Made by a program: the position numbers and the translations under genes. From the NCBI GenBank assembly GCA_964485575.1, contig CAZAJO010000004.1, positions 25,307 to 89,306 on the forward strand: a stretch of DNA of 64,000 nt, written 5' to 3'. Under the pieces are notes generated by a model that was not told the origin of the DNA, made no database searches, and saw only the letters and a program-made list of their open reading frames with translations. Of the stretch, positions 4,042 through 31,551 are shown piece after piece; positions within the stretch are counted from its first letter, which is position 1, and each line of letters starts with the position of its first letter. Origin of the DNA: an uncultured Gammaproteobacteria bacterium. Its GTDB lineage: Bacteria; Patescibacteriota; Microgenomatia; Levybacterales; GWA1-39-11.

Positions 4042-4047
4042 TGATAC

Positions 4048-4710
4048 CTACTCTGCCACTATCTTATCCTTTATCCCTTCGAATGTTTTTTGACCTAAGA
4101 TTTTCTTACTTACTAACTCGTTTATATTTGAATATGGACGACCAGCGATTATTTTTCTTGCTGTCACCGGTCCAACTTTCTGAAGTGTGTCTAATTCTGA
4201 TTCACTCGCTGAATTTATATTGATCAGTCCACTACTTTCAACAGTTGAGGCTGAGGAATTATCTAAGGTAGCATCGTTTGTATCTACAGATATATTTATA
4301 GTCTTAACCTCACCTATTGCTGGAATATAGATTTTGCCCCCATCCACCACTTTTTGAGCTTGATTCAGATGCTTGCTAACAAATACTCTGTCAGCAGATG
4401 ATGACAAACCCCCGGCTGCTATAAGGGCATCTTGGATCCTGGATCCATCTGCAAGCACATATACACCAGGATGCAGCACTTTTCCTTCAACATCAACAGA
4501 AATCTTGTTGGTAGTAGATGCACCTTTTATATCAGTAGCTTTACTCTCACTTGAGGTGAATACGATATCTGAAGTGTCACTTTTTGAGGCTATGTATTGA
4601 AATACTCCTAGAATCATGAGTAAAACTCCAAGAGAAATAAGTCCTACGAAAAGGAGATTTTTCTTAATAAATTCTAAAATAAATTCTTGGCGGGATTGTG
4701 TTTCCTCCAC
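4048..4710 (-). CDS. comEA: ComEA-like DNA receptor (N-terminal TM, SLBB-like region, C-terminal helix-hairpin-helix)
   Basis: C-terminal ININSASESELDTLQKVGPVTARKIIAGRPY is an HhH motif. Position is directly upstream of comEC. Confidence 0.75.
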   Translation of the reverse strand: MEETQSRQEFILEFIKKNLLFVGLISLGVLLMILGVFQYIASKSDTSDIVFTSSESKATDIKGASTTNKISVDVEGKVLHPGVYVLADGSRIQDALIAAGGLSSSADRVFVSKHLNQAQKVVDGGKIYIPAIGEVKTINISVDTNDATLDNSSASTVESSGLININSASESELDTLQKVGPVTARKIIAGRPYSNINELVSKKILGQKTFEGIKDKIVAE

Positions 4711-8989: not shown

Positions 8990-9613
8990 ATGAGAAGCAA
9001 GCAGATTCTTGAAGGTTCCTCTATAGTCCTTGCAGTATTTTTCGTGTTTTTAGTACAAAATACCGTTCTTATCACTTATAATTCCTATTTGCTAGCCATA
9101 CTTATCATTTTTTCCGCCATATACATCAGCCTCAAAAGAAGATCAAAGTCTCCATCTTCCCTTTTCTCCGGTAGCCCTGTTGAACTCTTCGGACTCATAT
9201 CAATAATAGTACTCATGGTCAGCCTCACAAATGGACTTTCTTCTCCCCTATTCTTCTTTCTTTACTTCATCTTGTTCTTACTTGCATTCATGTGTGAAAG
9301 TATAACCATATGGATATTTTTGACCTCAATTCTACTTTTCTTCCTACCGATAGTTCTGCAGAGTGTGTCCTCTGATTCGCTTATCAAAATGGGATCACTA
9401 GTGCTAATTTCCCCTATAGCCTATTTCATCGGTAGGGAATTTGAGCGTAGACAACTCCTAAACCGTAAGATAGAAAGCAAAACTGATGAAATCATTCAAG
9501 AAGCAAGACTGCTAAAAGAGGATGGAACCCCTAAGGGTCAAGATGAATCTGAGGCTATTGATGAAATAATTGAAGAAGCCTCATCACTTAAAGAAGATGC
9601 ACAAACTGATTAA
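8990..9613 (+). CDS. Polytopic membrane protein with acidic C-terminal tail (hypothetical)
   Basis: Five or more hydrophobic segments, C-terminal E/D-rich region, native low-GC codon usage. Confidence 0.55.
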   Translation: MRSKQILEGSSIVLAVFFVFLVQNTVLITYNSYLLAILIIFSAIYISLKRRSKSPSSLFSGSPVELFGLISIIVLMVSLTNGLSSPLFFFLYFILFLLAFMCESITIWIFLTSILLFFLPIVLQSVSSDSLIKMGSLVLISPIAYFIGREFERRQLLNRKIESKTDEIIQEARLLKEDGTPKGQDESEAIDEIIEEASSLKEDAQTD

Positions 9614-9622
9614 CAATGATTT

Positions 9623-9718
9623 GGGGTGGCTAGCGGGGGGAGGCCCTCATCGAGCACCCGCAGTGAAGCAACGCGAAACGAGGATTGTCGGATGAGGGAG
9701 GAGCGACGACAGGACCCC
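9623..9718. ncRNA. GC-rich structured RNA-like repeat, family 1 copy B
   Basis: Same element as 7785..7878. Closing stem UGGGGU/ACCCCA and internal stem CCCUCAUC/GAUGAGGG are the compensated versions of copy A. Ends 8 nt before the ATG at 9727. Confidence 0.4.
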
Positions 9719-9726
9719 ATTTAAGC

Positions 9727-10500
9727 ATGAATAAAAAAAGTATCACAACTATTCTTTTCTCACCAAAAGGAACTGCAGTATTCCTTACGCTCAACTTTGC
9801 CCTTTTTTGCCTATTTTTAGGTAAGAGTATTAGTGCGGAAACGATGTCTAATTCATCGTATAAAATCAGGTTTGGCAACCTCAATTCATTTGCTGGCAAA
9901 CCTTCAAATGCCTCATATAGCCTTGGAATAACAGGAGGACAAATAGCCCCTGGTCTTTATTCGGGTACAAATTTTAAAGTTAGAGCAGGATTTCAGTATA
10001 TAAAATCAATAATCCCCTTCACCTTCAAGATAAGCAGCGTATTTATCGACTTTGGACCCATAACACCAGGAACACCTATTACACGCACAAATACACTCAC
10101 CATTTCAAACGGTTCTGCTTATGGATACACAGTTCTTGCAAGTGAAAATCACCCTCTTCTTATCAATAGCACGGGTATTTCCATACCTGATACCACATGC
10201 GACAGTGGTACATGCACAGAATCAGTAGCAGCCGCCTGGACAAATCTTACTACATTCGGTTTTGGATACCGCTGCGACAATATAACAGGAACAGACTGCC
10301 AATCTGGATTTAGCACAGCCACAAACTATCGACAGTTTTCGGCTAGTAACTCCGGTGAATTAGCCTATCCTGTGATGCGTGGGGTCAATGTTGGACGTAA
10401 TATCCAAAGTCAGATCACATATAAAGTCAATGTTAGTTCCACCCAAGCAACTGGGGAATACCAAAATGTCATATCTTTCGTTGCTGTTCCTTCTATCTAA
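9727..10500 (+). CDS. Secreted protein with N-terminal signal peptide (hypothetical); the ORF-track start at 9685 is a TTG inside the RNA element, so ATG 9727 is preferred
   Basis: MNKKSITTILFSPKGTAVFLTLNFALFCLFLG is a signal-peptide-like N-terminus; the rest is a Ser/Thr/Asn/Gly-rich body. Confidence 0.6.
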   Translation: MNKKSITTILFSPKGTAVFLTLNFALFCLFLGKSISAETMSNSSYKIRFGNLNSFAGKPSNASYSLGITGGQIAPGLYSGTNFKVRAGFQYIKSIIPFTFKISSVFIDFGPITPGTPITRTNTLTISNGSAYGYTVLASENHPLLINSTGISIPDTTCDSGTCTESVAAAWTNLTTFGFGYRCDNITGTDCQSGFSTATNYRQFSASNSGELAYPVMRGVNVGRNIQSQITYKVNVSSTQATGEYQNVISFVAVPSI

Positions 10501-10910
10501 TCAACTTTTCACAGAGACATTTCCAATTTGCACATATAACAGCGCTTCCAAGGACTCACAAGCATTTTCAGTTATATAAGAATTTATACTTATCGTGTAC
10601 TGATGGATTCTCAAAATTAGGTTTTTAAGCCAATTCATCGATTATCCCATGTACATAGTCCAAAACCCCTCTTTTTTAGTCTATCACTCAGAACCTTAAA
10701 ATGCTGATATGCGAATCATTCGTGCCTTTTTTGAACCGATATAGTTTGATATACTCTATAGTTTTAATGGCTAAAATAACTATTTCCAAATGTATCAGAA
10801 ATGACGAATTACCGCGTATTAGAAATATTCTAGAAATTTGAGGTAAAATATTTTCTCCGCAAAGTAAATACCATTGTGAAATAAATAGGATTCTTTCCTT
10901 TTAAAATGAT

Positions 10911-11903
10911 TTGGGATACTATAAATGTATGAAAAGAAAAGCCATTTTTACCTTACTTATCTTGCCTCTGTTTCTTTCTATAGCAAAGGGCAACATTGAC
11001 GCCCAGGAACAAGCCTTAAGTATTTATCCACCTGTTATTGAAGTCCAGACAACTCCACCCTCCTCACCTCTGGTTCCAATCATAATTCAAAACAGTGCGG
11101 AGAATGATCTGCTTTTGAAAATTGAGCTTGTTCCTTTCAAAACGAATAATATTACAGGTGAGGTAAGATTAGTTCCTAACGATATCTCAAAAGGATTTTC
11201 CCCTTATTATCGGGATCGTATTCAATTTTTGGTTGATGGAAAAAAATCAAATACAGTTACACTCGCTCCTTTAGAATCAAAAGAGGTTCAACTTAATATA
11301 AATCTTAGTAAAGGTGACCCTCCAGGCGACTTCTACTATTCGATAGTATTTATCAATCAACAAGATGGACTCCCTGGCTCTAGCGTATCCCAAATGCCAG
11401 CCGGAATAGCCACAAACCTTCTGCTTTCGGTAGGTCCAAAGGATGAGTCTTCCGGTTCCATCTCCCAGTTCAAGACCTCTTCTTTTAAAACAAATGGCCC
11501 GGTTGAATTTGAGCTTAAAGTACATAATTCAAGCAAGCATCTTATTAACCCTACAGGTTCAATTCAAGTAAAAAATCTCTTTGGTCAGAACGTGGGTTCA
11601 GTCAAAATCTTGCCTCAATATGTTCTTGCTGGATCGGATAGATTTATGCTTGATGATAATCAAAGCTCACCTGAAGCAAGCCTTGCCTATCAACAACTAA
11701 ATACTACACCTAAGGTCATCTGGCCAGAAACGTTTCTCCTCGGTTGGTATGAAGCCAAAGCAACCGTATTACTTGAAGAAGATGGTAGAAGATATACTCA
11801 ATCACTCTACTTCTTCGCTTTTCCGCTGTATCTATTCTTCCCTTTAGTAGCTATAATCTTTATTATTCTTAGTGTGTATCTCAAAGTGAAGAAAAAAATC
11901 TAA
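10911..11903 (+). CDS. Cell-surface protein with signal peptide and C-terminal transmembrane anchor (hypothetical)
   Basis: N-terminal hydrophobic signal (alternative start MKRKAIFTLL at 10929). C-terminal FFAFPLYLFFPLVAIIFIILSVYLKVKKKI anchor followed by a basic tail. Confidence 0.6.
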   Translation: MGYYKCMKRKAIFTLLILPLFLSIAKGNIDAQEQALSIYPPVIEVQTTPPSSPLVPIIIQNSAENDLLLKIELVPFKTNNITGEVRLVPNDISKGFSPYYRDRIQFLVDGKKSNTVTLAPLESKEVQLNINLSKGDPPGDFYYSIVFINQQDGLPGSSVSQMPAGIATNLLLSVGPKDESSGSISQFKTSSFKTNGPVEFELKVHNSSKHLINPTGSIQVKNLFGQNVGSVKILPQYVLAGSDRFMLDDNQSSPEASLAYQQLNTTPKVIWPETFLLGWYEAKATVLLEEDGRRYTQSLYFFAFPLYLFFPLVAIIFIILSVYLKVKKKI

Positions 11904-12463
11904 CTTTTCATTTCTTCGCTTCAAGCTAGCGTTAAAAATATTCCCAGGCTTAAACGAAGTTAAGAAACTTATAGTGAAGAAAAAGGTCTGATTAAGCGGT
12001 TTTTAACAGAGTATTACAAAACATCCCTTTAATAATCCTATTGTGTCTACCAAGATGTATAACCATAGTATAAAAAATTCTATTTACATTATTAATAAAG
12101 GATAAATTAAATTTTAAATCCTTATCACTTCATCCACTAAATTGATTTTTACCGTCCGATAATTATCTTGCTAATTCGTATCTACCAGTTTTAACAAATA
12201 AAAACACCTATCCTAATAGTAATTACTTTTCACAAGATAGTAATTCATTAACCATTGATAAATCGTGTTTAAATGACCAAAAAAGCAACTCACATTATAT
12301 CCTAAAGTATTTTTTGAGGCTAAAATACCAGTTTGATCCACTATTCTAAATTGAATTTTGTGAAAATGTAAAAATCGTTTTTTGTCCTAAAATTACCTCA
12401 AGCAATTAGCGATATTTAATATATCTAAATATAACATAATACATCATAGCCTCAGAGCTACTC

Positions 12464-12491
12464 TTGACAGCGTAGTGTATGATTCTTTAAT
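12464..12491 (+). promoter_or_regulatory. Sigma-70-like promoter for the giant gene (TTGACA-16-TTTAAT)
   Basis: ttgaca at 12464..12469 and tttaat at 12486..12491, inside a 750-bp AT-rich leader. Confidence 0.4.
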
Positions 12492-12653
12492 CTGTTTATA
12501 CCCATGAAAAATCTGGCGTGTAAACAATATAATCAGTATAATTTTGAGGCTAAATACTCCCCTTGCGGTAATAATATTTTTGGACAAAGTGCGGCAATAA
12601 ATTCCAATGAAAATATATCCTCTAGCTTTTCACGATAAATACCAAATCTGCCT

Positions 12654-15600
12654 ATGGAATTATTAGAACTATTCAAAAGACAATTAGCATCAAAATCAGG
12701 ATCATCTTCGAAGAATACAATCAAGAATTATGTTTCAGATGTACGTCATTTTATAGCTTGGTTTGAGGCTATAACAGGATCAAAATTCGACCCTTCGTCG
12801 GTCACTACAGATGTTATTCTTTTATATCAAAATGGCTTGGGAGGGCTCGTTTTGAATGGCCAGTTACAGAGTGGCACCCAATTGTCAGCATCATCCATGA
12901 AAAGACACTTATCCTCAATAAGGAAATTTTTCACAGTCCTTGAGGCAGAAAATGTAGTCCGTGAAAACCCTTTCACAAAAATTATCACGGAAGAGTCTGT
13001 AGAACCGACGGATTATTGGCACTTAAAATCTTTTAAAGATTATTTGATGCTGGGAAATGCTTCAAAGATCACCGTCAAAAATTACCTTTCGGATATTTCC
13101 GGTTTTGCTAGATGGTATGAAGAAGCAATTCTTCCTACTATCGAGAGTCCGTTGAGCTCAAATCAAGGTTTTTATTTAATAACTCAGTCTGTGGTTGAAG
13201 ACTATCGAAAAAGGCTTGTCGAGATTCAAAATGCAGCTCCACGAACCATAAATAGAAAGCTTTCTGCGCTGCGCCGTTATCTGGAATTTGCAACAAGAAA
13301 GGGATTTATTACTAACCAAGAGATAAGTGTAAGCTCGGTTGAAGCAGACATTGCTGACGATGTTGCCGACCTTCCAAAAGTTGCATTATCTGAAATGTCT
13401 GAGAAGCTTTCTCCTCAAAAAAGATCTTACTCAAATATCCCTCCTGTCCGTCTGATTCAAAAACTCCTAATCAACCCATATCTTCTGCTTGAAGAAGGTG
13501 CAGCAAATGCAATAACAGGGTTTTTGATAGGTAAAAAAGTAACTGGTATTGCCAATTTGCCTCAGAAATTATCTGCTCAGATTGCTACTAAAAATGCGCT
13601 CAGAATACAAAATCAAGGAATAAGTACTCTTCTAGGTGTCCGAAATATTGAAAAAGAATTTTATGCTCCAGACAAAGTTTCTCTCTCAGGGTTGCCTGTT
13701 CATCAGAAATTAATCCATCATGTCAGGTTTACTAGACCTAATTGGTATAAAAGATATCATAACTATGCATTTGTTCATTACGTGCATTTTGCCCTACTCG
13801 TCATTTTCGCCGCCGGTGTTGGTGTTGCTTTGTATCAGAATTTAGTAGTGCAAAAACAGACACCAACCTTTGCCGCAGCTACTGCCCCACCTAGAATTCT
13901 TTCATTTCAAGGAAGACTTACTGATGCACTAGACAATCCTATTACTTCTCCTCAACCTGTCAGATTTATGATTTACAATAGCCTTGCTGCTACAGGTGCT
14001 GCTGAACTGTGGGAAGAGACAAGGACAATCAGTCCAGATCAGGATGGTATATTCTCAGTACTTTTAGGTAGCGATTCGACCGGCGCCAATGCTTCTTCTT
14101 GCGGATCTTTCCCTCCGGGAAGTCCATACAACACCGCTTGTCTTATTCCCTCAACAGTCTTCTCTGACAATAGTCAAATTTGGCTTGGTGTAACTATTGC
14201 TAACAGCACTGAGCTAGCACCGCGTCAAAAAATAGCTACCGTCGGATATGCAACAAATTCTGAATTTCTCCAAGGACTTCCTCCAACATCAGCTGTCAGT
14301 AGTTTTGTGAATGCAGTTCTCGCCCTTGATAGTACCGGAAGTTTTAATCTCAATGACGGTATCGAACACACATTTCAGGTCAGTAACGGCACCCTTACTC
14401 TTAAAGCACAAACCCTCAATCTAACCACGAGTCTTGGAACAAATGGAAATATCATCCTAAATCCAGAAGGGCTCGGTAAGGTTGATATACAAAAACCCAT
14501 CATCAATAACTCTAATACAGGCAATCTAGTGAGAGGTGGGGTTGAGATAAATGATAGATTTGGAGTTCTAGCTACCGAATCAGCAGTAGCTGCATTTATC
14601 GTTAACAATAATACGACTGGTGGAGATATTTTTGCTGCCTCTTCTTCTGGTACAACTAAATTTAAGATCGCCAACGATGGTTCTATCACTTCTGGATTTT
14701 ATACTGGTCAGAATGCAGTATTATATGGCACCCAGACTACTGGATTGATAGCTCAAGCAACCACAGCCTCAACTGGTCTTTGTCTTCAATCAGGTGCTTC
14801 AACACCAACGTGGGGCACGTGTGGGTCAAGCTACTGGAACCTTACGACTGACAATGGTGCATTAACCCCATTCAGTAGCACTCTTGACTTACTTATTGGC
14901 GGTCAGTCTACTGCATCTGCTAAATTCGCTTTTATTAATAATGCTTCAGGTGCACCAACCGCCTCTATCTCTGGCAATCTAGCAATCGCTGTGCCAACAG
15001 GAGCAAGTGGGGCAAATCTTTTTAATATTTTTAACGGGGGAAGCCTCAACTTTCAAACTTCAGGAGGAGGTAACGCTGGCCTTACTTCTCGTCTATTTAT
15101 AGCAAATGACGGAAGAATCGGTATAGCAACAACAAGTCCTATTGCTAAAAATGCATTAGATGTTAGGGGGATAAGCGGAACTGGCTCAACTGCAACAATA
15201 TCTGCTCGCTCTTCCTTTGCTGCCCTTGTTGTTAACAATGATGGTCTAGGGGATATTTTTGCTGCAAGTGCATCTGGAGTGCAGAATTTTGTCGTTAAAA
15301 ATAATGGTGATATCATTGTCGGACCCGATGGCGGTGGGAAAATAACAGCAGCAATAATTGATCCTTATCTCGTACAAAACCAAAAAACGACTGGAATTAC
15401 GAGTCTTACCTTACAGACAATGGGGGGGGCCGGGGCTGATATCATATTTTCTAATCAAAGTAGCGATCTTGTACATATCCTTCAAAATGGAAATGTAGGA
15501 ATAGGTGTAACCAATCCTACTACCGCAAAACTTGTGGTTGGTGGGGATATAGGCGCCGATGTAGTAGGACGAAATATAGGCTCACTCTCTATACCATTTA

Positions 15601-18600
15601 ACAATCTCTACGCAAATAATATCATCGCAACCGGTCCGGTAAGCGGATTTTGGGGACAGACACTTGGTTCACTCTACCCTGCAAACCCTACTGTTGATCT
15701 TCTAATCGGAAGCTCTGCGACTTCAACCGCTAAATTTGCAGTACTCAATATCAACACAGGTACCCCTACTGCATCAGTATCAGCTCAAAATGCTGGAGGA
15801 CAGGCATTAGTTCTTGCAAGCGATGGATCGATACAGACAACAAGAAGAAACAGTCTGGCAATTGGAGGCTCTTCCACAGGGTCTATTCAGTTCTTACCAA
15901 ACAATAATTCTGTGAATCTATTCCTTACTGGTTCAAATGCAGCAATCGGCAATCAAACACCTCAAGCGGCACTAGATGTCAGCTCTTCTTCACTAATCTC
16001 ATCTGTCGTCAATAAGATCGTTTTTGGAAGCATTGGTACGGCAATGGGATCATTGGGTTATGATGGATCGTCTTTCAATGAAATCAGGATTGGTGCCACC
16101 TCAAATGTAGGGCTTGAGCTTATAACAAATGACACCGTTAGAGGATATTTCACGGCTACTGGACTTTTTGGCCTGGGTACTGTAAGTCCTGTAGCTCAAT
16201 TACAGGTTAATGGAACCAATGGATCAAATGCTACAGTCATAATAAATCAGGGTAATAATGGTGATATACTCGCGGCATCTGCCTCAGGAACAACAAAATT
16301 TGTCATCAAAAATAATGGAATTGCCTCTTCATCAGCTGGGTTCACAATTGACGGACTGGGCGCTTTACAAAGTACAAATTTTCAGACTCTAACTATTGGT
16401 GGAAATTCTACCGGTAACGTTGTAGTCTCACCAAATAACGGAAGTGGCCAGATTCAATTTACAAATTTCACATCTGCAGGTGGACTACTTTATACTGGGG
16501 CAACTGGTATATTAGCACAGACTAACGTAGGTTCTGGTACACAGTGCTTGCTTGGAGGAACAACTCCTACCTTCGGGACTTGTGGAGGACCATTTAGAGA
16601 ATTGACAGCTTTCGGAACGATTGTTGAGAGCAACACAACTGAAGACTTCTTGCTTGGAGGTGTGGCAACCTCTAGTGCAAAATTTGCTGTACTTAACATT
16701 GCCGGAGGTACTCCTACTGCTTCTGTTTCTGCTCAAAATGCAGGCGGCCAGGCTCTTGTTCTTGGAGGAGATGGCACTATTCAGGCTGTCAGAAACAATA
16801 ACCTCACACTTGGTGGAAATACAACAGGAAGCCTCGTACTGGCAGGAACTTCAATTCAATTAAGCGCTACCAATCCTATCATTGACTTGACGACAGCCTC
16901 GACTCTTTCAATAAACACAACTACCAATAGGCCAATAACTACGGGTACCGGACTTACGACTTTGGGAGGAAATCTTACCGTCAATGGTGCTACCACGTCA
17001 CTTGCCTCAACAGCTATTACCCTGACAGGGTCATCTCCAATAATTGATCTAACTTCAGGCACAACTCTTTCGATAAATACAACTACAAACCGTCCTATTA
17101 CAACTGGGACTGGACTAACAACTCTGGGTGGAAATCTCACTGTAGCTGGTGCCACGACTACATTTAGCAACGCAACTCCAGTTCTAACCTCAAACACCGA
17201 TACTTCACTGACTATAACCCCAAATGGAACAGGAAATCTGATCCTGACCTCTGATCTGGATACAGGAGTAAAAATTGGTGCTTCAACAAATACTCTTGCC
17301 CCACTCTCTGTTTCGGGTGGAATTGGTGGGAATGCTCTCTCAATATTCAATCAGATAAATGGTACAGATATATTAGCGGCTTCGGCTTCGGGTGTTAGTA
17401 AATTCGTCATCAAAAATGACGGTACTGCTTCCTCATCAGCTGGTTTTACCGTTGATGGAATAGGCACAATTCAAAGCACACGAAATCAAACTCTTACTGT
17501 TGGCGGTGGATCGACTGGCAATCTTGTACTTGGAAAAGCCTCACAAACCCTCACACTTCCTGGCTTTACAACAAATGGAGGGTTACTTTATACAAATGCT
17601 TCAGGAGTTTTGGCACAAACAGGTACTGGTGGGGCTACTCAGTGTCTTTTGGGAGGAGCAGGTACTCCAACATTTGGATCATGTGGAACTGGGGTTAACT
17701 CCAGTCCATTCTATGAAATTCCTGCACCAATTGGCGTTATTGCCCAGGCCAACCTCACTGAAGACTTTTTACTTGGAGGACTTGCAACATCAAGCGCAAA
17801 ATTTGCCGTTCTTAACATTGCTGGAGGTACTCCTACTGCTTCTGTTTCTGCTCAAAATGCTGCTGGTCAGGCTCTTGTTCTTTCAGGAGATGGAACAATC
17901 CAATCTACGAGAAATAACAGTCTCACGCTTGGAGGAAATACAACAGGTAGCTTGGTACTAGCAGGAACATCAGTACAGCTCTCAGCTACCAATCCTATCA
18001 TTGACCTAACAAGTTCAAGCACTCTATTCATTAATACAACTACTAACCGTCCTATTACAACAGGTACTGGACTTACGACGCACAACGGAAATCTCACAGT
18101 TGCAGGGGCTACAATTACTTTCAGTAATGCCTCCCCTATCATCACATCAAACACAAATACAGACCTGACAATAACCCCAAATGGAACTGGGAATTTGATA
18201 TTAACCTCAGATCTAGATACAGGAGTAAAAATTGGAAGTTCAACCAATACTATTGCCCCTTTGTCAGTTTCTGGGGGCATTGGATCGAATGCTCTTGCTA
18301 TATTTAATCAAATTAATGGTACAGATATATTAACAGCTTCGGCTTCGGGCGTTAGTAAGTTCGTCATCAAAAACGACGGAACTGCTTCTTCATCAGCAGG
18401 TTTCACCATTGATGGGATAGGCGCTATTCAATCAACTCGCAATCAAACTTTAACAGTAGGTGGTGGAGCTACCGGTAATCTTGTGATTGGTCGTACTGCA
18501 CAAACTGTTACCCTTCCTGGATTTACTACAAATGGAGGATTACTTTATACAAATGCTTCAGGAGTTTTGGCCCAAACAGGTACTGGTGGGGCTACTCAGT

Positions 18601-21600
18601 GTCTTTTGGGAGGAGCTGGTACGCCAACATTTGGATCGTGTGGAACTGGGGTTAATTCCAGTCCATTCTATGAAATTGCCGCTCAGGGAATTATCGTCCA
18701 GGGAAATACCTCTGAGGACTTCCTCTTGGGAGCAACTGCAACATCTAGCGCAAAATTTGCCGTTCTTAACATCGCTGGTGGAACACCTACCGCATCGGTC
18801 TCAGCGCAAAATGCTGCCGGGCAGGCACTAGTTCTTGGATCAGATGGTTCAATCCAGTCAACAAGAAATAACAATCTTACAATTGGTGGTAATACAACAG
18901 GAAGCCTTGTACTTCCTGGAACATCCATCCAACTGACAGGAAACAATCCTGTAATTGACCTTACTACAGCCTCAACTCTTTCGCTAAATACTACAAACAA
19001 CCGTCCTATCACAACTGGTACCGGTACTTTTACTGTTGGTTCAGGAGGAACAGGAACGATTGCTATGAATGGAAGTGCTATAACAACGACCACAACATCA
19101 GTGAGTCTATTTGATGCCAATGCGACCACTATAAATTTTGGGAGAGCAGGAACAAATAATATTAACTTAGGAGGTACGTCAGGAGCACTTAATGTAGGAA
19201 ATGGTGGTAGCTATACTATTCAAACTACATCAAATGGACAACTTAATGTATCAGCTGGGTCAGGCCTTTTAACCCTAAATACTCTTTCAAACGGAGCTGT
19301 AACAACCGGAAATGGACTTACAACATTGGGTGGCAACTTGACTGTGAGTGGAACGACTATTTCTCTTGCTGGTACATCTCCTACAATTTCCACGACAGGA
19401 AGCAACAGCCTTACACTAACAGCAGCAGGAGCAGGCAGTCTAACCCTCTCCTCTGATTCAGATAGCTCAATATTTGTAGGCAACGCTACTACTCCAGCTC
19501 CTCTATCGATATCTGGAGGTATTGGCAATAATGCAGCTTTAGTTCTCAATCAACTTAATTCTACAGGTAATATCTTTTCGGCCTCGGCATCTGGAGTTAG
19601 TAAATTCGTTATCAAAAACGATGGCACAGCCTCTTCATCAGCAGGTTTTACGGTTGATGGGATCGGCAATATCCAATCTACCCTCAATCAAACACTTACG
19701 ATCGGTGGGGGCTCAACAGGAAATCTGATATTAGGTAAAGCAGCCCAGACTCTTACCCTTCCAGGGTTTACCACCAATGGTGGACTATTCTATACAAATG
19801 CGTCAGGGGTACTTGCCCAAACAGGTACTGGTGGGGCAACACAATGTCTACTTGGAGGAGCTGGTACTCCAACATTTGGTTCATGTACAGGAGGATCTAA
19901 TACAAGTCCATTCTATGAGTTCCAAGGAGCAATAGTCCCGGGCAACACCACCGAGGACTTTATCTTGGGTGGAACCGCATCAAGCAGCGCTCGATTTATC
20001 GTAAATGGCCTTGCGACCGGAATCTCCCCTACTGCTTCTATATCTGCTACAAACGGTAACGGAATATATCTTTCTGCACAAAACGGGACCATCCAGTCTC
20101 TAAGAAACAACACTCTTTCAATCGGAGGAAACACTACTGGAATAGTTGCAATAAACCCACTGGCTGCAAATTTCACAGGTATTGGGACTTCTAATCCTAT
20201 AGCTTCTCTTGATGTTAGAGGGTCACTTGGAATTATTGGTGGTGGAACTCTTGCTGTTGCTTCAATATCTGGAAGAACTTCATATGCAGCTCTTGCCGTA
20301 GACAATTTAAGTACCGTAGGAGATCTATTTACAGCTTCATCATCCTCAAATATGCAATTTGTCATCAAAAATAATGGATTTGTTGGCCTTGCAACTGCGG
20401 CTCCGACTGCCCGGCTTGATGTCAATGGTTCAGCCTCGATTTCAAGTGCATTAACATTTAGGACGGGGTCCGGAAGTATTCAAACAACTGCCTTAAATTC
20501 TCTTAATATCGGAGGGAGTACAACAGGAAATCTGATATTTAACCCTAACGGAAATAATCTCATCGGTGCTGGTACCTCAAGTCCGCGTGCCTCTTTTGAT
20601 ATCAGAAACGCTTTGGGGGTTGTTGGCGGGGGAACATTTGCTATAGCTTCAGTCTCGGGTAGAACTTCTTTTGCAGCTCTAACAGTAGACAATAGTTTAG
20701 GAGACTTATTCACAGCTTCATCATCAGGCTTAACAAGATTTGCTATTTCGCAAAATGGAAATGTAGGAATTGGAACAGGTACTCCACTTTACGCATTTGA
20801 TGTTAACAAAAAAACAGCAGCCTTCAATTCAGGCCAGGATGGCACGATTTCAAGCTGGACTAACACAACCGATACTGGATTGAGTGGGCAGCTGGAACAA
20901 TTTGGCCTCGTGTTCATAAATGGATACGTCTACCACGTAGGCGGATATGATGCACCCTCAGTACTTGATACAGTAAGATATGCAAGAGTAAAAAATGACG
21001 GAACACTAGATAATTGGGTAACAAGTCCAAATGTTCTTCCAGAGGCAAGACTTTGGCATGGAACTGTGACAGTTAATGGATATATTTACTCAATTGGTGG
21101 TCACTCAAGTGTTGCTTCACCTACAAATCCTGCTGTTTACTACACTAAAGTCAATTCAGATGGAACAATTAGCAGCTGGGGGTCAACAACTCCACTTCCA
21201 TCTCCCAGGATAAGAATTACACATTCTGTTGCAACAGCAAATGGATATATTTATGTTGTTGGAGGAGAAAATAGCTCAGCTCAAACTACTGTATGGTATA
21301 CAAAAGTAAATGCTGACGGCACGTTGGGACCTTGGCTTACAGGTTCCTCATTGCCAGTTGCTACCTCAGACAATGCAGTGGTTGTAGATAATGGATACAT
21401 ATATTCTATGGGAGGGCTAGCACCTGCAGCAACAAATGCAATCTATTATGCAAAAATTAACTATGATGGATCGATAGGACCATGGATTGGAAATCCCAAC
21501 AATCTTGCGTCAGCTGATTCGATGCATAGTGGAATTGTGGTGAATGGTTTTGTATACATTCTTGGGGGGATAAATAATTCTACAACCGTTTATTATGCAA

Positions 21601-24600
21601 AATTCAACGCTAATGGAACTATACCTGCTTTTTCGACAAATCCTGCCTCTCTTCCTGATGGTCATCAAGGAAGCGGTATAACGTATGGTAATGGCTATAT
21701 CTATATTTCCGGAGGATTTGCTACTGACAATGTAGCTTATGGATCAATTGCAAGAGTGTCTCTAGCTGCTAACTTAGACCTGTTAGGGTTGACCTCAACA
21801 AGTATAGCGAGTTCATCTGGGCTTGCTGGTGGAGGTAGTATCTTTGCAGGTAATATATTTGCCAAAAATCTTGAGGTAGGTGGAAGCGGAACCGTTTGGG
21901 GAAATCTTGCAGTATCAGATACCCTTTCGGCCAAAACTCTATCAATTTCTGGTCGGATTACTGGTAAAGCCCTCACTATTATTAACGAAACAGGTAATCA
22001 GGCTATATTTTCTGCATCTGCTTCCGGAGTTACTAAATTTACCATCGGCAATGATGGACAAGTCATGATAGGCAACATTGCTGCTGACCCTTCAACTGCC
22101 TTGGGAGCAGGATCTATATATTACAACACAGTAAGCCAGGCTCTAAAATTCTATAATGGTTCGGCATGGGCCACAATAGGTACGGGGAGCTCATCGTCAG
22201 GTCCATTTGGAGTACTTCAAGGAGCAATCGTTCCGACAAATACGACGTATGACTTTCTCCTTGGAGGAACAGCAACATCCTCTGCTAAATTCGCCGTACT
22301 CAATCTTTCAGGAACAGCAACTACTGTTGCATCGGTATCTGGCAACTTGGTTGTTATGCCTACAAATGGTACAGGAGGACTCTTGTCGATTGGTACGACA
22401 AATCCTTCTTCCAAATTACACATATTTGAATCTGTTAGCGATGTTGCAGTAACTATCGAGACGCAAGGATCAAACAAAAGTGCTAACCTAAATCTGCTTA
22501 GCACCAGTAATACTGCAGGACAAATATCCCATTTTGCTTCAGGAGTACGACAATGGATGATTGGTAACAATGGGGACATCACAGCTGGTGGAATTGGCAT
22601 ATATACTACTTCAAGTAACGCTAACCGGCTTGCCATATCTTCTACAGGCAACGTAGGGATTGGAACGGCGCTCTCTCCAACAGGAGTAAATCCTACGTCC
22701 CCCCTTCAGGTATATGGACTGAGTACTCAACCTATCGCTTCAATATCAGGTAAAACTTCGGGACCAACCCTTCTTCTAACAAATGATGGAAGCGGTGACA
22801 TACTAGCCGCTTCAGTATCCGGAGTTCAGAAGTTCAGGATCAACGCTACTGGCGATCTTATTATTGGAGACGGATCAGGGAAAATATACGGAGGAGGATT
22901 TGACCCTCTCTATACAATCGATGGCAAGAAATTTTCTACATACGCTTCAAGCATCAATGGTATGAAAGAAGAATATATCGGTACTGCAAATCTTGCCTAT
23001 GATCCTGCCGCTGGAGGATATGCTTATACCCTTGATTTCAACAATTTTGAGTATGGTACTGAGTTATGGACTTTCTCTCGGGTAATCGATCCGGATCTTA
23101 CTAAGGTCAATGTACTTCTCACACCCACTTCTCAAGCAAGGACCTGGTTCAGGCGTGACCCGGTCAACAGAAAACTCATACTCTATTCAGACAGACCTAC
23201 GTCAGTCACATACAGGTTCACTGCACCTCGTTTTGATTATGCTTTGTATCCTTCTTCGGATCATTCCCATGATATTACTGGTTTACAAGCACCAGCGGCT
23301 CCAAACACTACCGGGACAGGTGAGGCTGATCCTATGGATTCTTTCTTTGCATCTCTTTCCATACAATTTAACAATGGGATGTTCACGATACTTGATGGAT
23401 TTGGCAACTTAGTTCATAGGGTCGATGGGTTCTCAAACCTCATAGCAGCAAATCTTGAGGCTGGTTTTATCCACGCAAGGAATTTGGCTGCAGATACTTT
23501 TTCAGCAGGAAGTGCATCATTGGGTAATGCAACAGCAAATACTTTTGCAGTAGCTGCGAATACAATCACTATTGGTGGACAAGATATCAGGCAATTTATC
23601 ATAGATACTGTTACTGCAGCAGGATTTGGCCAAAATACAATCATTTCCCCTCTTGCTGAGGTAGAAACAATAAAAACAAATACTATCAGGTCTCTTACTG
23701 AAGGTGGAGATATAAATGTGAAAGGAAAACTCATCACAGAGTCAGACAGATCGGCTACTGATAGTTCAGTAGTCTCACTTGACGTGAGAGGATCAGCAAC
23801 TATTTCAGGCTCACTAGCAACAAATTCTATCCAAACTAACGATGCGACTATAGCTGGAACCCTTCGCGCAGGAAACCTTATTGCTGACAATATCCAAGGG
23901 CTTGAGGATAAGATTTCCTCAGTAGCCTCACAATTCGTCAACAATCATGCAGCAACTCTAGCAGTAGGTACTGTACGGGCTGATTTTGGCATATTTGAAC
24001 AAGGAATAACCTCAATGGGACCAGTGACTGCCAATATCCTTACTGCAACAGATCAATTGGCCGTAGGAAATAACTTTACAATCTCAAACAATGCAATAAA
24101 TACAGTAGGATCTGATCTTGCCATACAGTCTTTGAGACAAGGTGCTATAGCATTTCAGGGTGGGCTTATCCGCATGGATACAGATGGCAATATGACGGTC
24201 AACGGTAATTTCAACCTTCTCGGCGAAATTGATGCGGTATACGGAGTATTTAGTGGTACTCTCACTACCCCAGCCCTTACTACAGATCTCATTTCACCTG
24301 TAGCTGATTCGAATATCTCTCTTTCATTCAAAGATTCTAAATTTAATATTCAGAATTCCAAAACTGCTTCCGGAAGTGCTGTGCTATCCATAGACAATAA
24401 AGGGAACATACAGTCGTCAGGATCTGCAACATTTGCAAAACTCAATTTCAATCTAGTTGGAAAGGCTGAAGCAACAAGTCTTTCAGAAGCGGTAGCTACT
24501 GGAAGCGCAGGTTTTGCTTCACTCAGAGCCGGACAACCAGAACTAACCATAAAGAACAATATCATTACATCAAAATCATTGATCTATATCACACCATTTG

Positions 24601-24766: not shown

Positions 24767-25132
24767 ATGGGAAAAATAAGTACATTTACTGATCTTGAAA
24801 CCTGGAAAGAAGGTCATAAGCTAGTAATCGCTGTTTATAAAATTCTTCCAACCATTCCTCGCTCTTCATATTCGCTTATAGATCAATTATCTAGATGTGT
24901 AGTGTCTATTACTTCAAATATTGCTGAAGGCTTCTCGAGGCAAAGCAAAAAAGAAAAGATTCAGTTTTATCACATAGCAAAAGGCTCCCTTACTGAGCTT
25001 CAAAATCAATTGTTAATATGTCGAGATGTCCGATTTATAACACAAAAAGAATTCCTTCCGTTAGCTGAACAGACTATAGTTGTGGGAAAATTACTTACAG
25101 GACTTATTCGATCAGCGCAATCATATCAATGA
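24767..25132 (+). CDS. Four-helix-bundle protein (23S rRNA intervening-sequence protein family; DGR Avd-like fold)
   Basis: AEGFSRQSKKEKIQFYHIAKGSLTELQNQL matches the TIGR02436-type four-helix-bundle family pattern. Confidence 0.7.
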   Translation: MGKISTFTDLETWKEGHKLVIAVYKILPTIPRSSYSLIDQLSRCVVSITSNIAEGFSRQSKKEKIQFYHIAKGSLTELQNQLLICRDVRFITQKEFLPLAEQTIVVGKLLTGLIRSAQSYQ

Positions 25133-31137: not shown

Positions 31138-31138
31138 A

Positions 31139-31546: not shown

Positions 31547-31551
31547 AGTAT

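What the first reader, a model, noticed from the sequence alone, without database searches (positions are those of the whole stretch)
12654..13835. Giant 4027-aa surface protein starts with two phage-integrase-type SAM-like domains on the cytoplasmic side of a single TM helix
Residues 1-100 and 120-225 each match the N-terminal SAM-like or core-binding domain of tyrosine recombinases (KNTIKNYVSDVRHFIAWF...LSSIRKFFTVL and ITVKNYLSDISGFARWY...LSALRRYLEFA). There is no catalytic integrase domain. A hydrophobic helix follows at about 13767..13835, and then about 3600 residues of extracellular beta-rich repeats and a Kelch propeller. A DNA-binding-type module tethered inside the cell to a giant adhesin-like ectodomain is an unusual architecture. 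It could anchor the protein, or couple the surface apparatus to DNA or nucleoid, or to another SAM-like-binding partner.
Basis: partly seen in the sequence, partly recalled or inferred. Interest (0 to 1): 0.6.

Follow-up and report, generated by a model that had tools for sequence, protein, structure and literature searches.

The report
Surface fibre with integrase-type cytoplasmic tail
A giant cell-surface fibre protein of an ultra-small (Microgenomates/Levybacteria-type) bacterium is anchored by one membrane helix. Inside the cell it carries two copies of the DNA-binding "core-binding" domain of integrases with no enzyme part, which suggests, without proving, a direct link between the surface fibre and DNA.

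Summary
ORF 12654..24737 (4027 aa) starts with two Pfam-significant integrase SAM-like/core-binding (CB) domains (aa 1-110 and 120-225). No catalytic domain occurs anywhere in the protein. The only strongly hydrophobic helix is at aa ~374-399, and about 3600 residues of fibre-like ectodomain with a Kelch propeller follow. Charge distribution, cysteine distribution and signal-peptide-bearing relatives of the first ecto-domain all place the CB pair in the cytoplasm.

It is not a one-off. The order CB-CB-linker-juxtamembrane motif-TM-stem is kept in at least 647 protein clusters, almost all from Levybacteria-type Microgenomates. It always sits at the N-terminus, in a conserved operon of envelope proteins. 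Public records call these proteins "site-specific integrase, partial", which is wrong.

New points:
- In a related genome a paralogue carries a MerR helix-turn-helix in place of the CB pair.
- In Woesebacteria-type relatives the CB module is split from the fibre at a TAA stop, always in the +1 frame.
- The gene is preceded by a gene-specific promoter followed by two to three 9-nt direct repeats (TATAATCNG) and GAGGCTAA.

Best reading (inference): a membrane-tethered DNA-binding tail, ToxR-like in logic, possibly acting on its own leader. A RodZ-like protein adaptor is the main rival.

The parts
12464..12493 (+). Candidate promoter of the giant gene: TTGACA (12464-12469), 18-nt spacer, TAATCT (12488-12493). 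In most other loci it is preceded by a conserved ACTCTAGG box.
   Evidence: The sequence was read. The consensus tAcTcTaggntcTTGACA-N18-tAttcTaat comes from 71 distinct upstream regions. TTGACA is 8.8-fold and ACTCTAGG 128-fold enriched in the 300 nt upstream of family genes compared with the rest of 1.2 Mb. No transcription start site data exist, so this is an inference.
12518..12553 (+). Gene-specific leader element: GTGTAAACAA TATAATCAG TATAATTTTGAGGCTAA. This is 2-3 tandem 9-nt units (family consensus ATAAtcnG TATAATCcG TATAATcTcG) followed by aGGCTAA.
   Evidence: There is a single hit in the 64-kb window. Across 1.29 Mb of related loci (both strands searched) there are 80 hits, all on the gene strand and all upstream of the family gene or of a small gene inserted in front of it. 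RNAalifold finds no consensus RNA structure and there is no Rfam match. In metagenomes, 13 of 16 copies with promoter context precede a SAM-domain ORF.
12654..12983 (+). Core-binding (SAM-like) domain 1, aa 1-110, cytoplasmic.
   Evidence: Pfam Phage_int_SAM_1 and SAM_5 hits. AF2 pLDDT is ~87-97, with helices at 2-13, 20-41, 52-60 and 79-98. Foldseek matches integrase CB domains. The family-conserved residues T22 K24 N25 Y26 D29 F33 W36 and S81 R84 S87 L89 R90 K91 F92 lie in helices B and D. Median net charge is +4.5 in 126 relatives.
13011..13328 (+). Core-binding (SAM-like) domain 2, aa 120-225, cytoplasmic.
   Evidence: Pfam Phage_int_SAM_4 best stretch is 124-207. The NCBIfam XerC N-terminal match is 126-225. 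AF2 pLDDT is 81-97 apart from one loop. Conserved residues are T140 K142 N143 Y144 D147 F151 W154 and N200 R201 K202 L203 S204 R207. Median net charge is +4.
13329..13673 (+). Basic, mostly disordered cytoplasmic linker (aa 226-340) with the short conserved motifs YSxFPPxRLxQK (aa 259-270) and YAPxxxS (aa 337-343).
   Evidence: pLDDT is mostly below 60. The motifs are conserved in 62- and 126-sequence alignments. Median net charge is +7.
13674..13850 (+). Juxtamembrane aromatic/basic helix (R-x-T-R-P-N-W-Y-K-x-Y-H, aa ~356-370) and the single transmembrane signal-anchor (aa ~374-399).
   Evidence: R361 P362 W364 Y365 Y368 are invariant in 62 sequences. pLDDT is 86-97. The Kyte-Doolittle peak is 2.09 at aa 381-399. 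The flank is net positive (median +4) on the N side in 99% of relatives. The motif is kept even in the MerR-type paralogue.
13866..14753 (+). Conserved extracellular stem (aa ~405-700). It starts with the small domain PPRILSFQGRLTD...LWxE...PDxDGxF...LG.
   Evidence: It is present in ~97-99% of 124 relatives. It is also found after a TM in other Microgenomates and directly after a signal peptide in P0236. No Pfam family matches it.
14754..23450 (+). Variable shaft of the fibre: Gly/Thr/Ser/Ala-rich beta repeats, three to four ~320-415-aa repeats, six Cys-X12-Cys loops, and a Kelch propeller at aa ~2750-2970 (nt ~20907-21569).
   Evidence: Composition and Cys pairs are. DNA repeats of 200-300 nt lie 948-1245 nt apart at 65-85% identity. 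Only 4-55% of relatives align here, and the Kelch part aligns in 4-15%.
23451..24737 (+). Conserved C-terminal ~430 aa (the distal end of the fibre), of unknown fold.
   Evidence: It aligns in 76-92% of 124 relatives, always at their C-terminus. There is no Pfam hit and no PDB sequence hit.
8990..11903 (+). Conserved upstream operon partners. c2 (8990-9613) is a ~5-TM protein with an acidic tail. c0 (9685-10500) is a secreted beta-rich protein. c1 (10911-11903) has a signal peptide, beta domains and a C-terminal TM, and resembles WxL-interacting proteins.
   Evidence: The order c2-c0-c1-(c5)-fibre gene recurs in most of 77 loci. For c1, WxLIP_PGBD matches 15 of 29 members (best E 1.5e-7) and the profile hits E. 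faecium WxLIP1 9i1y at E=0.0015. c0 has no family match. c2 has only weak DUF6057 hits.

Best explanation
The flagged stretch is the cytoplasmic tail and signal-anchor of a lineage-specific surface-fibre protein.

Shown or strongly predicted:
- The protein is inserted N-in/C-out by one helix.
- The ~3600-aa C-terminal part is outside the cell. It has a conserved stem, a variable repeat shaft and a conserved distal domain, and is probably trimeric.
- The first 225 residues are two tyrosine-recombinase core-binding domains without any catalytic domain.
- These are joined to the membrane by a ~130-residue basic flexible linker and a rigid aromatic/basic juxtamembrane helix.

Inferred: the tail works as a membrane-tethered nucleic-acid (DNA) binding module. 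The logic resembles ToxR/CadC-type bitopic regulators, but with a different DNA-binding fold and a giant fibre in place of a small sensor domain.

More speculative: the most concrete candidate target is the gene's own leader. There a conserved, gene-specific array of two to three 9-bp direct repeats lies just downstream of the promoter. Binding there by the tandem (head-to-tail) CB domains could feed fibre abundance or assembly back on transcription. Alternatively it could hold the gene at the membrane while the 12-kb message is translated and exported.
For: Identity of the domains: strong profile and fold matches for both CB domains.

Conservation: the most conserved residues are those of helices B and D. 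From established knowledge of Cre, XerD and lambda Int structures, these are the two helices that CB domains place in the major groove. They include surface basic residues R84, R90, K91, K142, R201, K202 and R207, which are invariant or nearly so over 42-126 sequences. They align with the Arg-rich helix D of XerD.

Charge: the whole tail is basic. Medians are SAM1 +4.5, SAM2 +4, linker +7 and juxtamembrane +4, whereas the first ecto-domain is acidic.

Purifying selection on the layout: 150 of 158 relatives have the same order, and 647 cluster representatives score E<=1e-30.

Replacement by a second DNA-binding fold: in one genome (L201) a 2xCB fibre gene and a paralogue are close neighbours. 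The paralogue has the same juxtamembrane motif, TM and stem but a MerR-type HTH at the N-terminus. A second such protein, P0231, has MerR at 33.2 bits against a cut-off of 28.2.

Candidate operator: there is one copy in the 64-kb window. All 80 copies in 1.29 Mb lie upstream of the family gene. It shows no RNA structure signal and is made of direct repeats, which matches a tandem rather than a dyad-symmetric binder.

Not phage-borne: no relative occurs in 2.9 million viral contigs, and the chromosomal synteny next to LeuRS is fixed.
Against: - No binding data of any kind exist.
- From established knowledge of lambda Int and Xer, isolated CB domains bind core sites weakly without the catalytic domain clamping the other face of the DNA.
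- The repeat period of 9 bp is short for two ~100-aa domains.
- There are up to three repeat units but only two domains.
- The link between the repeats and the CB domains is only co-occurrence in cis. Any other regulator could bind there, or the TATAAT units could be sigma-factor pause or promoter elements.
- DNA-binding folds on bitopic membrane proteins can be re-used for protein binding. RodZ is the precedent: its HTH binds MreB.
- AF2 gives no fixed arrangement of the two domains (pTM 0.38).
Confidence: 0.42

Rival explanations
1. Protein-protein adaptor (RodZ-like re-use of a DNA-binding fold). The CB domains no longer bind DNA. Instead they dock a cytoplasmic partner such as a cytoskeletal, divisome or secretion component, or a soluble CB-domain protein. 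This would position or stabilise the base of the fibre.
For: - The bitopic N-in layout matches that of RodZ (established knowledge).
- The linker carries short conserved linear motifs (YSxFPPxRLxQK, YAPxxxS) of the kind typical of partner-binding peptides.
- The TM and juxtamembrane residues are far more conserved than a passive anchor needs.
- In Woesebacteria-type loci, CB1 plus half of CB2 is a separate ORF that overlaps the fibre gene. This would require non-covalent assembly on the tail if no frameshift occurs.
Against: Two unrelated DNA-binding folds (CB pair and MerR HTH) occupy the same position in paralogues. This is easier to explain by a shared nucleic-acid ligand than by a shared protein partner. 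The conserved surface residues are the basic ones of the DNA-contact helices. No candidate partner gene is conserved next to the fibre gene other than envelope proteins.
Confidence: 0.28
2. Passive topological and mechanical anchor. A large, positively charged folded domain plus an aromatic belt fixes the N-in orientation of the signal-anchor. It also stops a very long fibre from being pulled out of the membrane. Under this reading the CB fold is incidental.
For: There is a strong positive-inside bias and a Trp/Tyr/His-rich interfacial helix. The ectodomain is very long and probably load-bearing. Relatives with much shorter cytoplasmic parts exist.
Against: A plug does not need two copies of a specific fold with invariant surface residues kept over >600 clusters at 30-40% identity. 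Nor would it need replacement by another DNA-binding domain. A few basic residues suffice for orientation.
Confidence: 0.15
3. Proteolytically released transcription factor (Notch/SREBP-like logic). Contact or load on the fibre triggers intramembrane cleavage, and the CB pair then diffuses to its DNA targets.
For: The evidence for DNA binding is the same as in the best explanation. There is also a long flexible linker, and a conserved Gly within the TM consensus.
Against: No protease gene is linked. c2 gives only weak Peptidase_M50 hits in 3 of 28 members and has no conserved His, Glu or Asp. No cleavage motif is recognisable. The strongly conserved juxtamembrane helix argues for a permanent anchor.
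Confidence: 0.08
4. Artefact or degenerate integrase. On this view the N-terminus is the remnant of a real recombinase gene fused to a surface-protein gene by misassembly, frameshift or recent gene decay, as the public name 'site-specific integrase, partial' implies.
For: Public records name family members 'site-specific integrase, partial' or 'recombinase XerD'.
Against: The same fusion recurs in 101 species-level genomes and at least 647 protein clusters from independent assemblies. The junction (linker, juxtamembrane motif, TM) is itself conserved. No catalytic domain lies nearby in any locus. Internal repeats are only 65-85% identical at the DNA level, so repeat collapse is unlikely.
Confidence: 0.01

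Closest known systems
Core-binding (N-terminal SAM-like) domain of tyrosine recombinases (XerC/XerD, XerA, lambda Int, Cre, IntI)
   Same: Same fold and same sequence signature in helices B and D, for both repeats.
   Different: There is no catalytic domain and hence no recombinase chemistry. The domain is duplicated in tandem. It is tethered to the membrane and forms the first 6% of a 4027-aa surface protein.
ToxR/CadC/TcpP-type bitopic membrane-bound transcription regulators
   Same: N-terminal cytoplasmic domain of a DNA-binding type, one TM, and a C-terminal extracytoplasmic part. ToxR-family proteins bind direct repeats in promoters (established knowledge), and a direct-repeat array lies in this gene's leader.
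   Different: The DNA-binding fold is a CB domain, not an OmpR-type winged helix. The outside part is a 3600-aa fibre, not a ~100-200-aa sensor domain. DNA binding is not demonstrated.
RodZ (bitopic membrane protein whose cytoplasmic HTH binds MreB)
   Same: Type II topology with a DNA-binding-type fold at the cytoplasmic N-terminus. It shows that such folds can serve protein binding.
   Different: The fold differs (XRE HTH versus CB). RodZ has a small periplasmic domain and no fibre. No link to MreB was seen here.
Csc / WxL cell-surface clusters of Lactobacillales and enterococci (WxL proteins plus WxL-interacting protein DUF916/CscA)
   Same: The upstream operon partner c1 has the WxLIP layout (signal peptide, beta domains, C-terminal TM plus Lys-rich stop-transfer) and weak profile similarity to it. 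The cluster encodes several envelope proteins next to a large surface protein.
   Different: No WxL domain was detected in c0 or in the fibre. The organisms are CPR bacteria. No member of the Firmicute clusters is known to carry a cytoplasmic CB domain.
Tail-fibre-like surface proteins of other bacteria that start with a signal peptide followed by I-N-Y-Q-G-x-L-T-D domains
   Same: The first ecto-domain is homologous (P0236). A relative has collagen triple-helix repeats (P0228, E=1e-29), which points to a trimeric fibre.
   Different: Those proteins have an ordinary cleavable signal peptide. Here a 370-aa cytoplasmic module and an uncleaved signal-anchor replace it.
Giant proteins of ultra-small or predatory bacteria (Omnitrophota giant genes, bioRxiv 10.1101/2023.11.21.568195)
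   Same: A very large, repeat-rich, mostly extracellular protein in a small-genome organism.
   Different: That study does not mention integrase or CB domains. The size range and domain content differ, and most members of the present family are only ~1450 aa.

Membership tests
Tyrosine recombinase / phage integrase (Xer, Int) | N-terminal core-binding (SAM-like) four-helix domain | tested here: met
   Pfam SAM_1, SAM_4 and SAM_5 all score above their gathering cut-offs, twice in the protein. Fold matches are to XerA, lambda Int and IntI CB domains.
Tyrosine recombinase / phage integrase (Xer, Int) | C-terminal catalytic domain (PF00589) with the R-K-H-R-H/W-Y active site | tested here: not met
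   No PF00589 hit at E<=1 in 4027 aa. XerC/XerD NCBIfam models match only positions 2-94 of ~295 and score 61-71 bits against cut-offs of ~330. No such gene lies adjacent in 77 loci. The protein is therefore not a recombinase, and the public name 'site-specific integrase' is wrong.
Tyrosine recombinase / phage integrase (Xer, Int) | Soluble protein of ~300-400 aa | tested here: not met
   4027 aa with a single TM helix.
ToxR-like membrane-bound one-component regulators | Bitopic, N-in topology with the DNA-binding-type domain in the cytoplasm | tested here: met
   This is prediction only: positive-inside bias, Cys distribution, and an ecto-domain homologue that follows a signal peptide.
ToxR-like membrane-bound one-component regulators | OmpR/PhoB-type winged-helix DNA-binding domain | tested here: not met
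   Only integrase SAM-like families hit the N-terminus.
ToxR-like membrane-bound one-component regulators | Sequence-specific binding to promoter DNA and control of transcription | not testable with these tools
   A conserved direct-repeat element exists in the gene's own leader. Binding cannot be computed here.
ToxR-like membrane-bound one-component regulators | Small periplasmic sensor domain | tested here: not met
   The outside part is ~3600 aa of fibre repeats, a Kelch propeller and a conserved distal domain.
RodZ | XRE-type HTH at the cytoplasmic N-terminus that binds MreB | tested here: not met
   No HTH_XRE/RodZ family hit in the Pfam or NCBIfam scans. MreB binding is not testable.
Csc / WxL surface cluster | WxL-interacting protein (DUF916/WxLIP) encoded in the cluster | tested here: inconclusive
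   For c1, WxLIP_PGBD matches 15 of 29 members (best E 1.5e-7). The window copy scores only 16.5 bits against a cut-off of 27.3. The profile hit to PDB EfmWxLIP1 is E=0.0015.
Csc / WxL surface cluster | WxL domain proteins in the cluster | tested here: not met
   No WxL family hit in c0 (29 members) or in the fibre protein.
Kelch beta-propeller | Several Kelch motifs above the Pfam cut-off | tested here: met
   Kelch_6 scores 34.9 bits (cut-off 25.3) and Kelch_1 scores 26.9 bits (cut-off 20.1), at aa ~2750-2970. This insert is present in only 4-15% of relatives.
Phage tail fibre / prophage gene | Occurrence on viral contigs or in a prophage context | tested here: not met
   No relative in 2.9 million IMG/VR contigs. 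The chromosomal neighbourhood is fixed: LeuRS, ComEA/ComEC, sigma-70 and Rho.

The most novel reading that the evidence does not exclude
A surface fibre wired directly to its own gene. The tandem core-binding domains recognise the 9-bp direct-repeat array in the leader of the fibre gene. The gene is thereby held at the membrane during the minutes needed to transcribe, translate and export a 12-kb message, or it is switched according to the state of the fibre. That would be a one-protein signalling path from cell surface to DNA in bacteria. In sister lineages the same link would be made or broken by a +1 frameshift at a TAA stop inside the second core-binding domain, or by swapping in a MerR helix-turn-helix.
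Probability: 0.15. Interest if true: 0.85.

Novelty: new variant of a known kind. Interest (0 to 1): 0.62.

Why it matters
All cultivated CPR/Patescibacteria live attached to host cells (PMC12206443). How they sense and regulate that attachment is largely unknown. This family places a recombinase-derived DNA-binding fold at the inner end of what is probably the attachment fibre. It is conserved over hundreds of species and has its own conserved control element.

If the tail binds DNA, this is a new class of membrane-tethered regulator or gene-to-membrane tether. It would also be a new life for the integrase core-binding domain outside recombination.

There are practical consequences as well. 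The result corrects a systematic misannotation, since these proteins are named "site-specific integrase, partial" or "XerD". It also gives defined reagents for a simple test: residues 1-230 and a 36-bp element.

Tried and rejected
- Rfam scan of the 5' region: no match.
- RNAalifold on 26 leaders: no consensus structure, so the leader element is not supported as a structured RNA.
- Intrinsic terminator scan of the 750-nt gap: none found.
- Small ORFs in the gap: none is conserved at the protein level as far as inspected.
- Remnant of the c5 gene in the gap: tblastn found nothing.
- c2 as a site-2 protease: only 3 of 28 members give weak M50 hits, and no catalytic residues are conserved. Rejected.
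- c0 as a WxL protein: no Pfam or PDB support.
- C-terminal 458 aa against PDB sequences: nothing.
- Phage origin: nothing in viral contigs.
- Exact-match metagenome scan with the 17-mer TATAATCCGTATAATCT. Most hits were chance matches inside unrelated coding regions (for example M50 protease 'YNPYNL'). Only hits with promoter context are informative.
I used proteins from the homology search instead.
- Literature searches for this architecture: nothing found.
- The top PDB sequence hit, 9i5v 'RaiA', is a P. gingivalis XerC-like/RaiA fusion. Only 34 RaiA residues of it are modelled, so it says nothing about CB domains on ribosomes.
- TRF found no tandem repeats because the repeat period exceeds its limit. 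The repeats were found with the repeat finder instead.
Full report
**1. What is in the sequence**

The window holds one ORF of 4027 codons at 12654..24737 on the + strand.

Pfam on residues 1-420 reports three integrase N-terminal SAM-like families above their curated cut-offs:
- Phage_int_SAM_1: E=6.4e-19, 68.5 bits against 22.3, two stretches.
- Phage_int_SAM_4: E=7.8e-14, two stretches.
- Phage_int_SAM_5: E=4e-9.

NCBIfam XerC, XerD and XerA models match, but only through their first ~94 positions and far below their cut-offs. No catalytic Phage_integrase domain is found at E<=1 anywhere in the 4027 residues. The two copies (aa 1-110 and 120-225) are 29% identical to each other.

An AlphaFold2 model made with a 42-sequence alignment gives pLDDT 90-97 for both domains. 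Its best PDB fold matches are core-binding (CB) domains of integrases:
- the Haloarcula integrase N-domain 3nrw (TM 0.70);
- XerA 5hxy (rmsd 1.8 A over 96 residues);
- lambda Int bound to core DNA, 1z19;
- Brujita Int and IntI4.

**2. Topology**

Residues 381-399 form the only strongly hydrophobic 19-residue segment in the protein (Kyte-Doolittle 2.09; the next best is 1.40). AF2 predicts a helix at 372-397 with pLDDT around 95. Four lines of evidence place the CB pair in the cytoplasm:
- There is no N-terminal signal sequence.
- The 15 residues before the helix hold four Lys/Arg, against one in the 15 after it.
- Across 126 relatives, the juxtamembrane N-side is net positive in 99%. The two CB domains and the linker are basic (medians +4.5, +4, +7), and the first domain after the helix is acidic.
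- All twelve cysteines lie after residue 480, as six pairs 12-13 residues apart, as expected for extracytoplasmic disulfide loops.

The domain that follows the helix (PPRILSFQGRLTD...) occurs directly after a cleavable signal peptide in an unrelated protein, P0236. The CB pair is thus cytoplasmic and the remaining ~3600 residues are outside. This rests on prediction, not experiment.

**3. A large family, not a single odd protein**

*Size and layout.* An exhaustive profile search of 1.84 billion cluster representatives found 647 proteins at E<=1e-30. In the best 150 the module matches from residue ~1, apart from a few N-terminally truncated fragments. Domain HMMs built here find the order CB1-CB2-juxtamembrane/TM-stem in 150 of 158 members. 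The rest are fragments or have a split CB2. Most members are 1300-1650 aa, with a tail up to 6048 aa.

*Conservation along the protein.* Residues 1-700 and the last ~430 residues are shared by about 90-99% of relatives. The middle is shared by 40-55%, and the Kelch region by only 4-15%. The base and distal end are therefore conserved and the shaft is variable.

*Taxonomy.* A scan of one genome per species found 101 loci (80 kept). The informative record titles are Candidatus Levybacteria/Levyibacteriota, Microgenomates or Patescibacteria. Many others come from a third-party MAG set titled "uncultured Gammaproteobacteria". I treat that title as unreliable, because gene content and synteny are those of the Levybacteria loci (inference).

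*Origin.* No relative exists on 2.9 million viral contigs. The window itself is ordinary CPR chromosome: LeuRS, ComEA, ComEC, sigma-70, Rho, RadA, S1, pyruvate kinase and enolase.

*Naming.* Public sources name family members "site-specific integrase, partial" or "site-specific recombinase XerD". The membership test shows this is wrong.

**4. Anatomy of the tail**

The residues conserved family-wide are T22 K24 N25 Y26 D29 F33 W36 and S81 R84 S87 L89 R90 K91 F92 in CB1. The matching set in CB2 is T140 K142 N143 Y144 D147 F151 W154 and N200 R201 K202 L203 S204 R207.

These residues fall in helices B and D. In solved recombinase-DNA complexes (Cre, lambda Int, Xer; established knowledge) these are the two helices that lie in the major groove. 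The profile alignment to XerD puts R84, R90 and K91 on the Arg-rich helix D of XerD.

After CB2 comes a ~130-residue basic linker of low predicted order. It carries two short conserved motifs, YSxFPPxRLxQK and YAPxxxS. A very conserved aromatic/basic juxtamembrane helix follows (R361 P362 W364 Y365 Y368 invariant in 62 sequences), and then the TM. AF2 gives no fixed packing between the two CB domains (pTM 0.38).

**5. Context**

In most of 77 loci the gene is preceded, on the same strand, by three genes:
- c2, a ~206-aa multi-TM protein;
- c0, a secreted beta-rich protein of ~255 or ~480 aa;
- c1, a ~330-aa protein with a signal peptide and a C-terminal TM.

About half of the loci add an opposite-strand Ig-like membrane protein (c5). 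Further upstream lies LeuRS on the opposite strand, and a TPR protein lies downstream.

c1 resembles WxL-interacting proteins of Firmicutes: WxLIP_PGBD matches 15 of 29 members, and the profile hits E. faecium WxLIP1 9i1y at E=0.0015. c0 and c2 have no convincing family.

In the window these genes are at 8990-9613, 9685-10500 and 10911-11903. Four genes are inserted between the fibre gene and the TPR gene (33396-35564): a 23S-rRNA-IVS/bAvd-like gene, an LRR protein, a 1711-aa LamG/TLDc protein and pilin-like genes.

**6. A gene-specific control element**

*Layout.* Many loci keep a 520-990-nt non-coding gap between c1 and the fibre gene, most often 640-750 nt; it is 750 nt in the window. In its last 200 nt there is a conserved layout:
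- (tACTCTAGGtyc) TTGACA, an 18-nt spacer, then tAttcT;
- 30-60 nt further on, ATAAtcnG TATAATCcG TATAATcTcG aGGCTAA. This is two to three 9-nt direct repeats plus a GAGGCTAA box.

In the window the corresponding positions are TTGACA at 12464-12469, TAATCT at 12488-12493 and the repeats at 12518-12553.

*Specificity.* The pattern TATAATnnGTATAAT occurs once in the 64-kb window. It occurs 80 times in 1.29 Mb of related loci, always on the gene strand. It is always upstream of the family gene or of a small gene inserted just in front of it.

A 17-mer exact scan of metagenomes gave mostly chance hits inside unrelated ORFs. Of the 16 hits with a promoter context, 13 precede a CB-domain ORF, 2 are too short to tell, and 1 has an inserted IVS-protein gene.

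*Other features.* TTTTCAC is 22-fold enriched in these upstream regions. There is no Rfam match and no RNAalifold consensus structure. The element therefore looks like a sequence-specific binding site rather than a folded RNA.

**7. Relatives with other tails**

Searching with the extracellular stem found the same TM-plus-stem in Beckwith-, Woese-, Shapiro- and Roizmanbacteria.

*MerR variants.* Protein P0231 has a MerR helix-turn-helix (33.2 bits against a cut-off of 28.2) in place of the CB pair, followed by the same juxtamembrane motif (KIHQKVLHHIKYTRPDWYRNYHN). On contig L201 a 743-aa 2xCB member (P0180) and a 1628-aa MerR-type paralogue lie 6 kb apart. Two unrelated DNA-binding folds in the same position is the strongest indirect argument here that the tail's ligand is nucleic acid.

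*Split CB modules.* The other lineages appear to start with only the second half (helices C-D) of a CB domain. In three Woesebacteria-type loci, however, an upstream ORF of 124-153 aa encodes CB1 plus the first half of CB2. It ends in TAA and overlaps the fibre ORF, which is in the +1 frame in all three. Skipping one base at the TAA would restore an intact CB2. This is either programmed +1 frameshifting or a true split domain.

Two further loci are broken at the same intra-domain position in other ways. L204 (Beckwithbacteria) has an in-frame TAG and a ~330-nt insertion, and L205 (Roizmanbacteria) needs a -1 shift.

*Oligomeric state.* One relative (P0228) has collagen triple-helix repeats in the ectodomain (E=1e-29). 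This suggests the fibres are trimers.

**8. Interpretation**

*Shown or well predicted:*
- a type II membrane protein with a giant fibre outside and a tandem CB tail inside;
- conservation of this layout, operon-embedded, with its own cis element;
- not a recombinase and not phage-borne.

*Best inference (0.42).* The tail is a membrane-tethered DNA-binding module, like ToxR in logic. The direct repeats in its own leader are the best candidate target. This last step is only a co-occurrence.

*Rivals:*
- a RodZ-like protein adaptor (0.28);
- a passive anchor (0.15);
- a proteolytically released factor (0.08);
- an artefact (0.01, refuted).

*Against the DNA model:*
- Isolated CB domains bind weakly in the known systems.
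- The 9-bp period is short.
- There are no binding data.

**9. Novelty**

Nothing describing this architecture turned up in five searches of the open-access PMC/bioRxiv full-text library. The giant-gene survey of Omnitrophota does not mention integrase-type domains.

I rate it a new variant of a known kind: bitopic membrane proteins with a cytoplasmic DNA-binding-type domain. The variant uses a fold not previously seen in that role and an unusually large ectodomain. Interest is 0.62. It would surprise specialists and is directly testable, but the function is still inferred.

Noticed in passing
window 12464-12553 (and 12312-12323): Conserved promoter-like block followed by two to three 9-nt direct repeats (TATAATCNG) and a GAGGCTAA box. 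It is unique in the window and found only upstream of this gene family in 1.29 Mb of related loci. A second TTTTGAGGCTAA box lies 230 nt further upstream.
   Followed up: yes
window 11904-12653: A 750-nt non-coding gap between c1 and the fibre gene, unusually long for a compact CPR genome. It is kept at 520-990 nt (mostly 640-750 nt) in many related loci. TTTTCAC heptamers are 22-fold enriched in the 300 nt upstream of the gene. There is no Rfam hit, no terminator and no conserved small ORF.
   Followed up: partly
L203 5637-6011/6001-, L206 2095-2556/2501-, L208 564-1010/994-: In Woesebacteria-type relatives the CB module is split. An upstream ORF (CB1 plus helices A-B of CB2) ends in TAA and overlaps the fibre ORF (helices C-D of CB2 plus TM plus stem). 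The fibre ORF is in the +1 frame in all three loci. This is either a possible programmed +1 frameshift or a split domain that reassembles.
   Followed up: partly
L204 5175-6000; L205 5770-6030: The same intra-domain position of CB2 (or of the single CB) is interrupted in other ways. In a Beckwithbacteria locus there is an in-frame TAG after CB1 plus a ~330-nt insertion. In a Roizmanbacteria locus a -1 shift near G-runs is needed.
   Followed up: partly
L201 16019-18232 (and protein P0231): Paralogous fibre protein with a MerR-type helix-turn-helix instead of the CB pair. It has the same juxtamembrane motif, TM and stem, and lies 6 kb from a 2xCB paralogue (P0180, 8001-10232) on the same contig.
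   Followed up: yes
window 24767-25132; also L010, L027, L028, L066, L169, L201 15537-15899, L205 4214-4780: Small four-helix-bundle genes (23S_rRNA_IVP / bAvd-like, E=2e-31 in the window) sit repeatedly right next to, or inserted in front of, the fibre gene in different lineages. No reverse transcriptase was seen among the window ORFs scanned, so a diversity-generating retroelement is not evident.
   Followed up: partly
window 4767-7760 (- strand): The leucyl-tRNA synthetase (997 aa) carries a NUDIX domain hit (E=3.9e-8, aa 398-510) inserted after the editing domain. This is an unusual insertion for LeuRS.
   Followed up: no
window 1985-4710 (- strand): Competence genes about 8 kb upstream of the fibre gene: ComEA-like (SLBB plus HHH_3, 4048-4710) and ComEC apparently split into a Competence-domain ORF (2824-4041) and a separate weak metallo-beta-lactamase-like ORF (1985-2827). 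No conserved linkage to the fibre gene was checked beyond LeuRS.
   Followed up: no
window 26002-33017 (- strand): A second large surface protein (1711 aa: DUF2341, LamG, TLDc, fn3-like) followed by a pilin-like gene with an N-terminal methylation motif and a cupredoxin-like gene. In this genome they are inserted between the fibre gene and its usual downstream TPR neighbour.
   Followed up: no
protein P0228 (relative from the stem search): The ectodomain of a Roizmanbacteria-type relative contains long collagen Gly-X-Y repeats (Pfam Collagen E=1e-29). This implies a trimeric fibre for at least part of the superfamily.
   Followed up: partly
PDB 9i5v chain 14, PMC12123416: The P. gingivalis 'RaiA' chain of 401 aa has an XerC-like CB domain at its N-terminus, so it is a natural integrase-like/hibernation-factor fusion. 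Only 34 RaiA residues are modelled in the ribosome structure, so the role of the CB part is unknown.
   Followed up: partly
window 12654-24737, aa 483/496, 710/723, 1298/1310, 1664/1677, 1983/1996, 2398/2411: All twelve cysteines form six regularly spaced pairs (C-x12-13-C, often in the context C...TP(T)FG(S/T)CG). They are probably disulfide-closed loops that mark the repeat units of the shaft.
   Followed up: no
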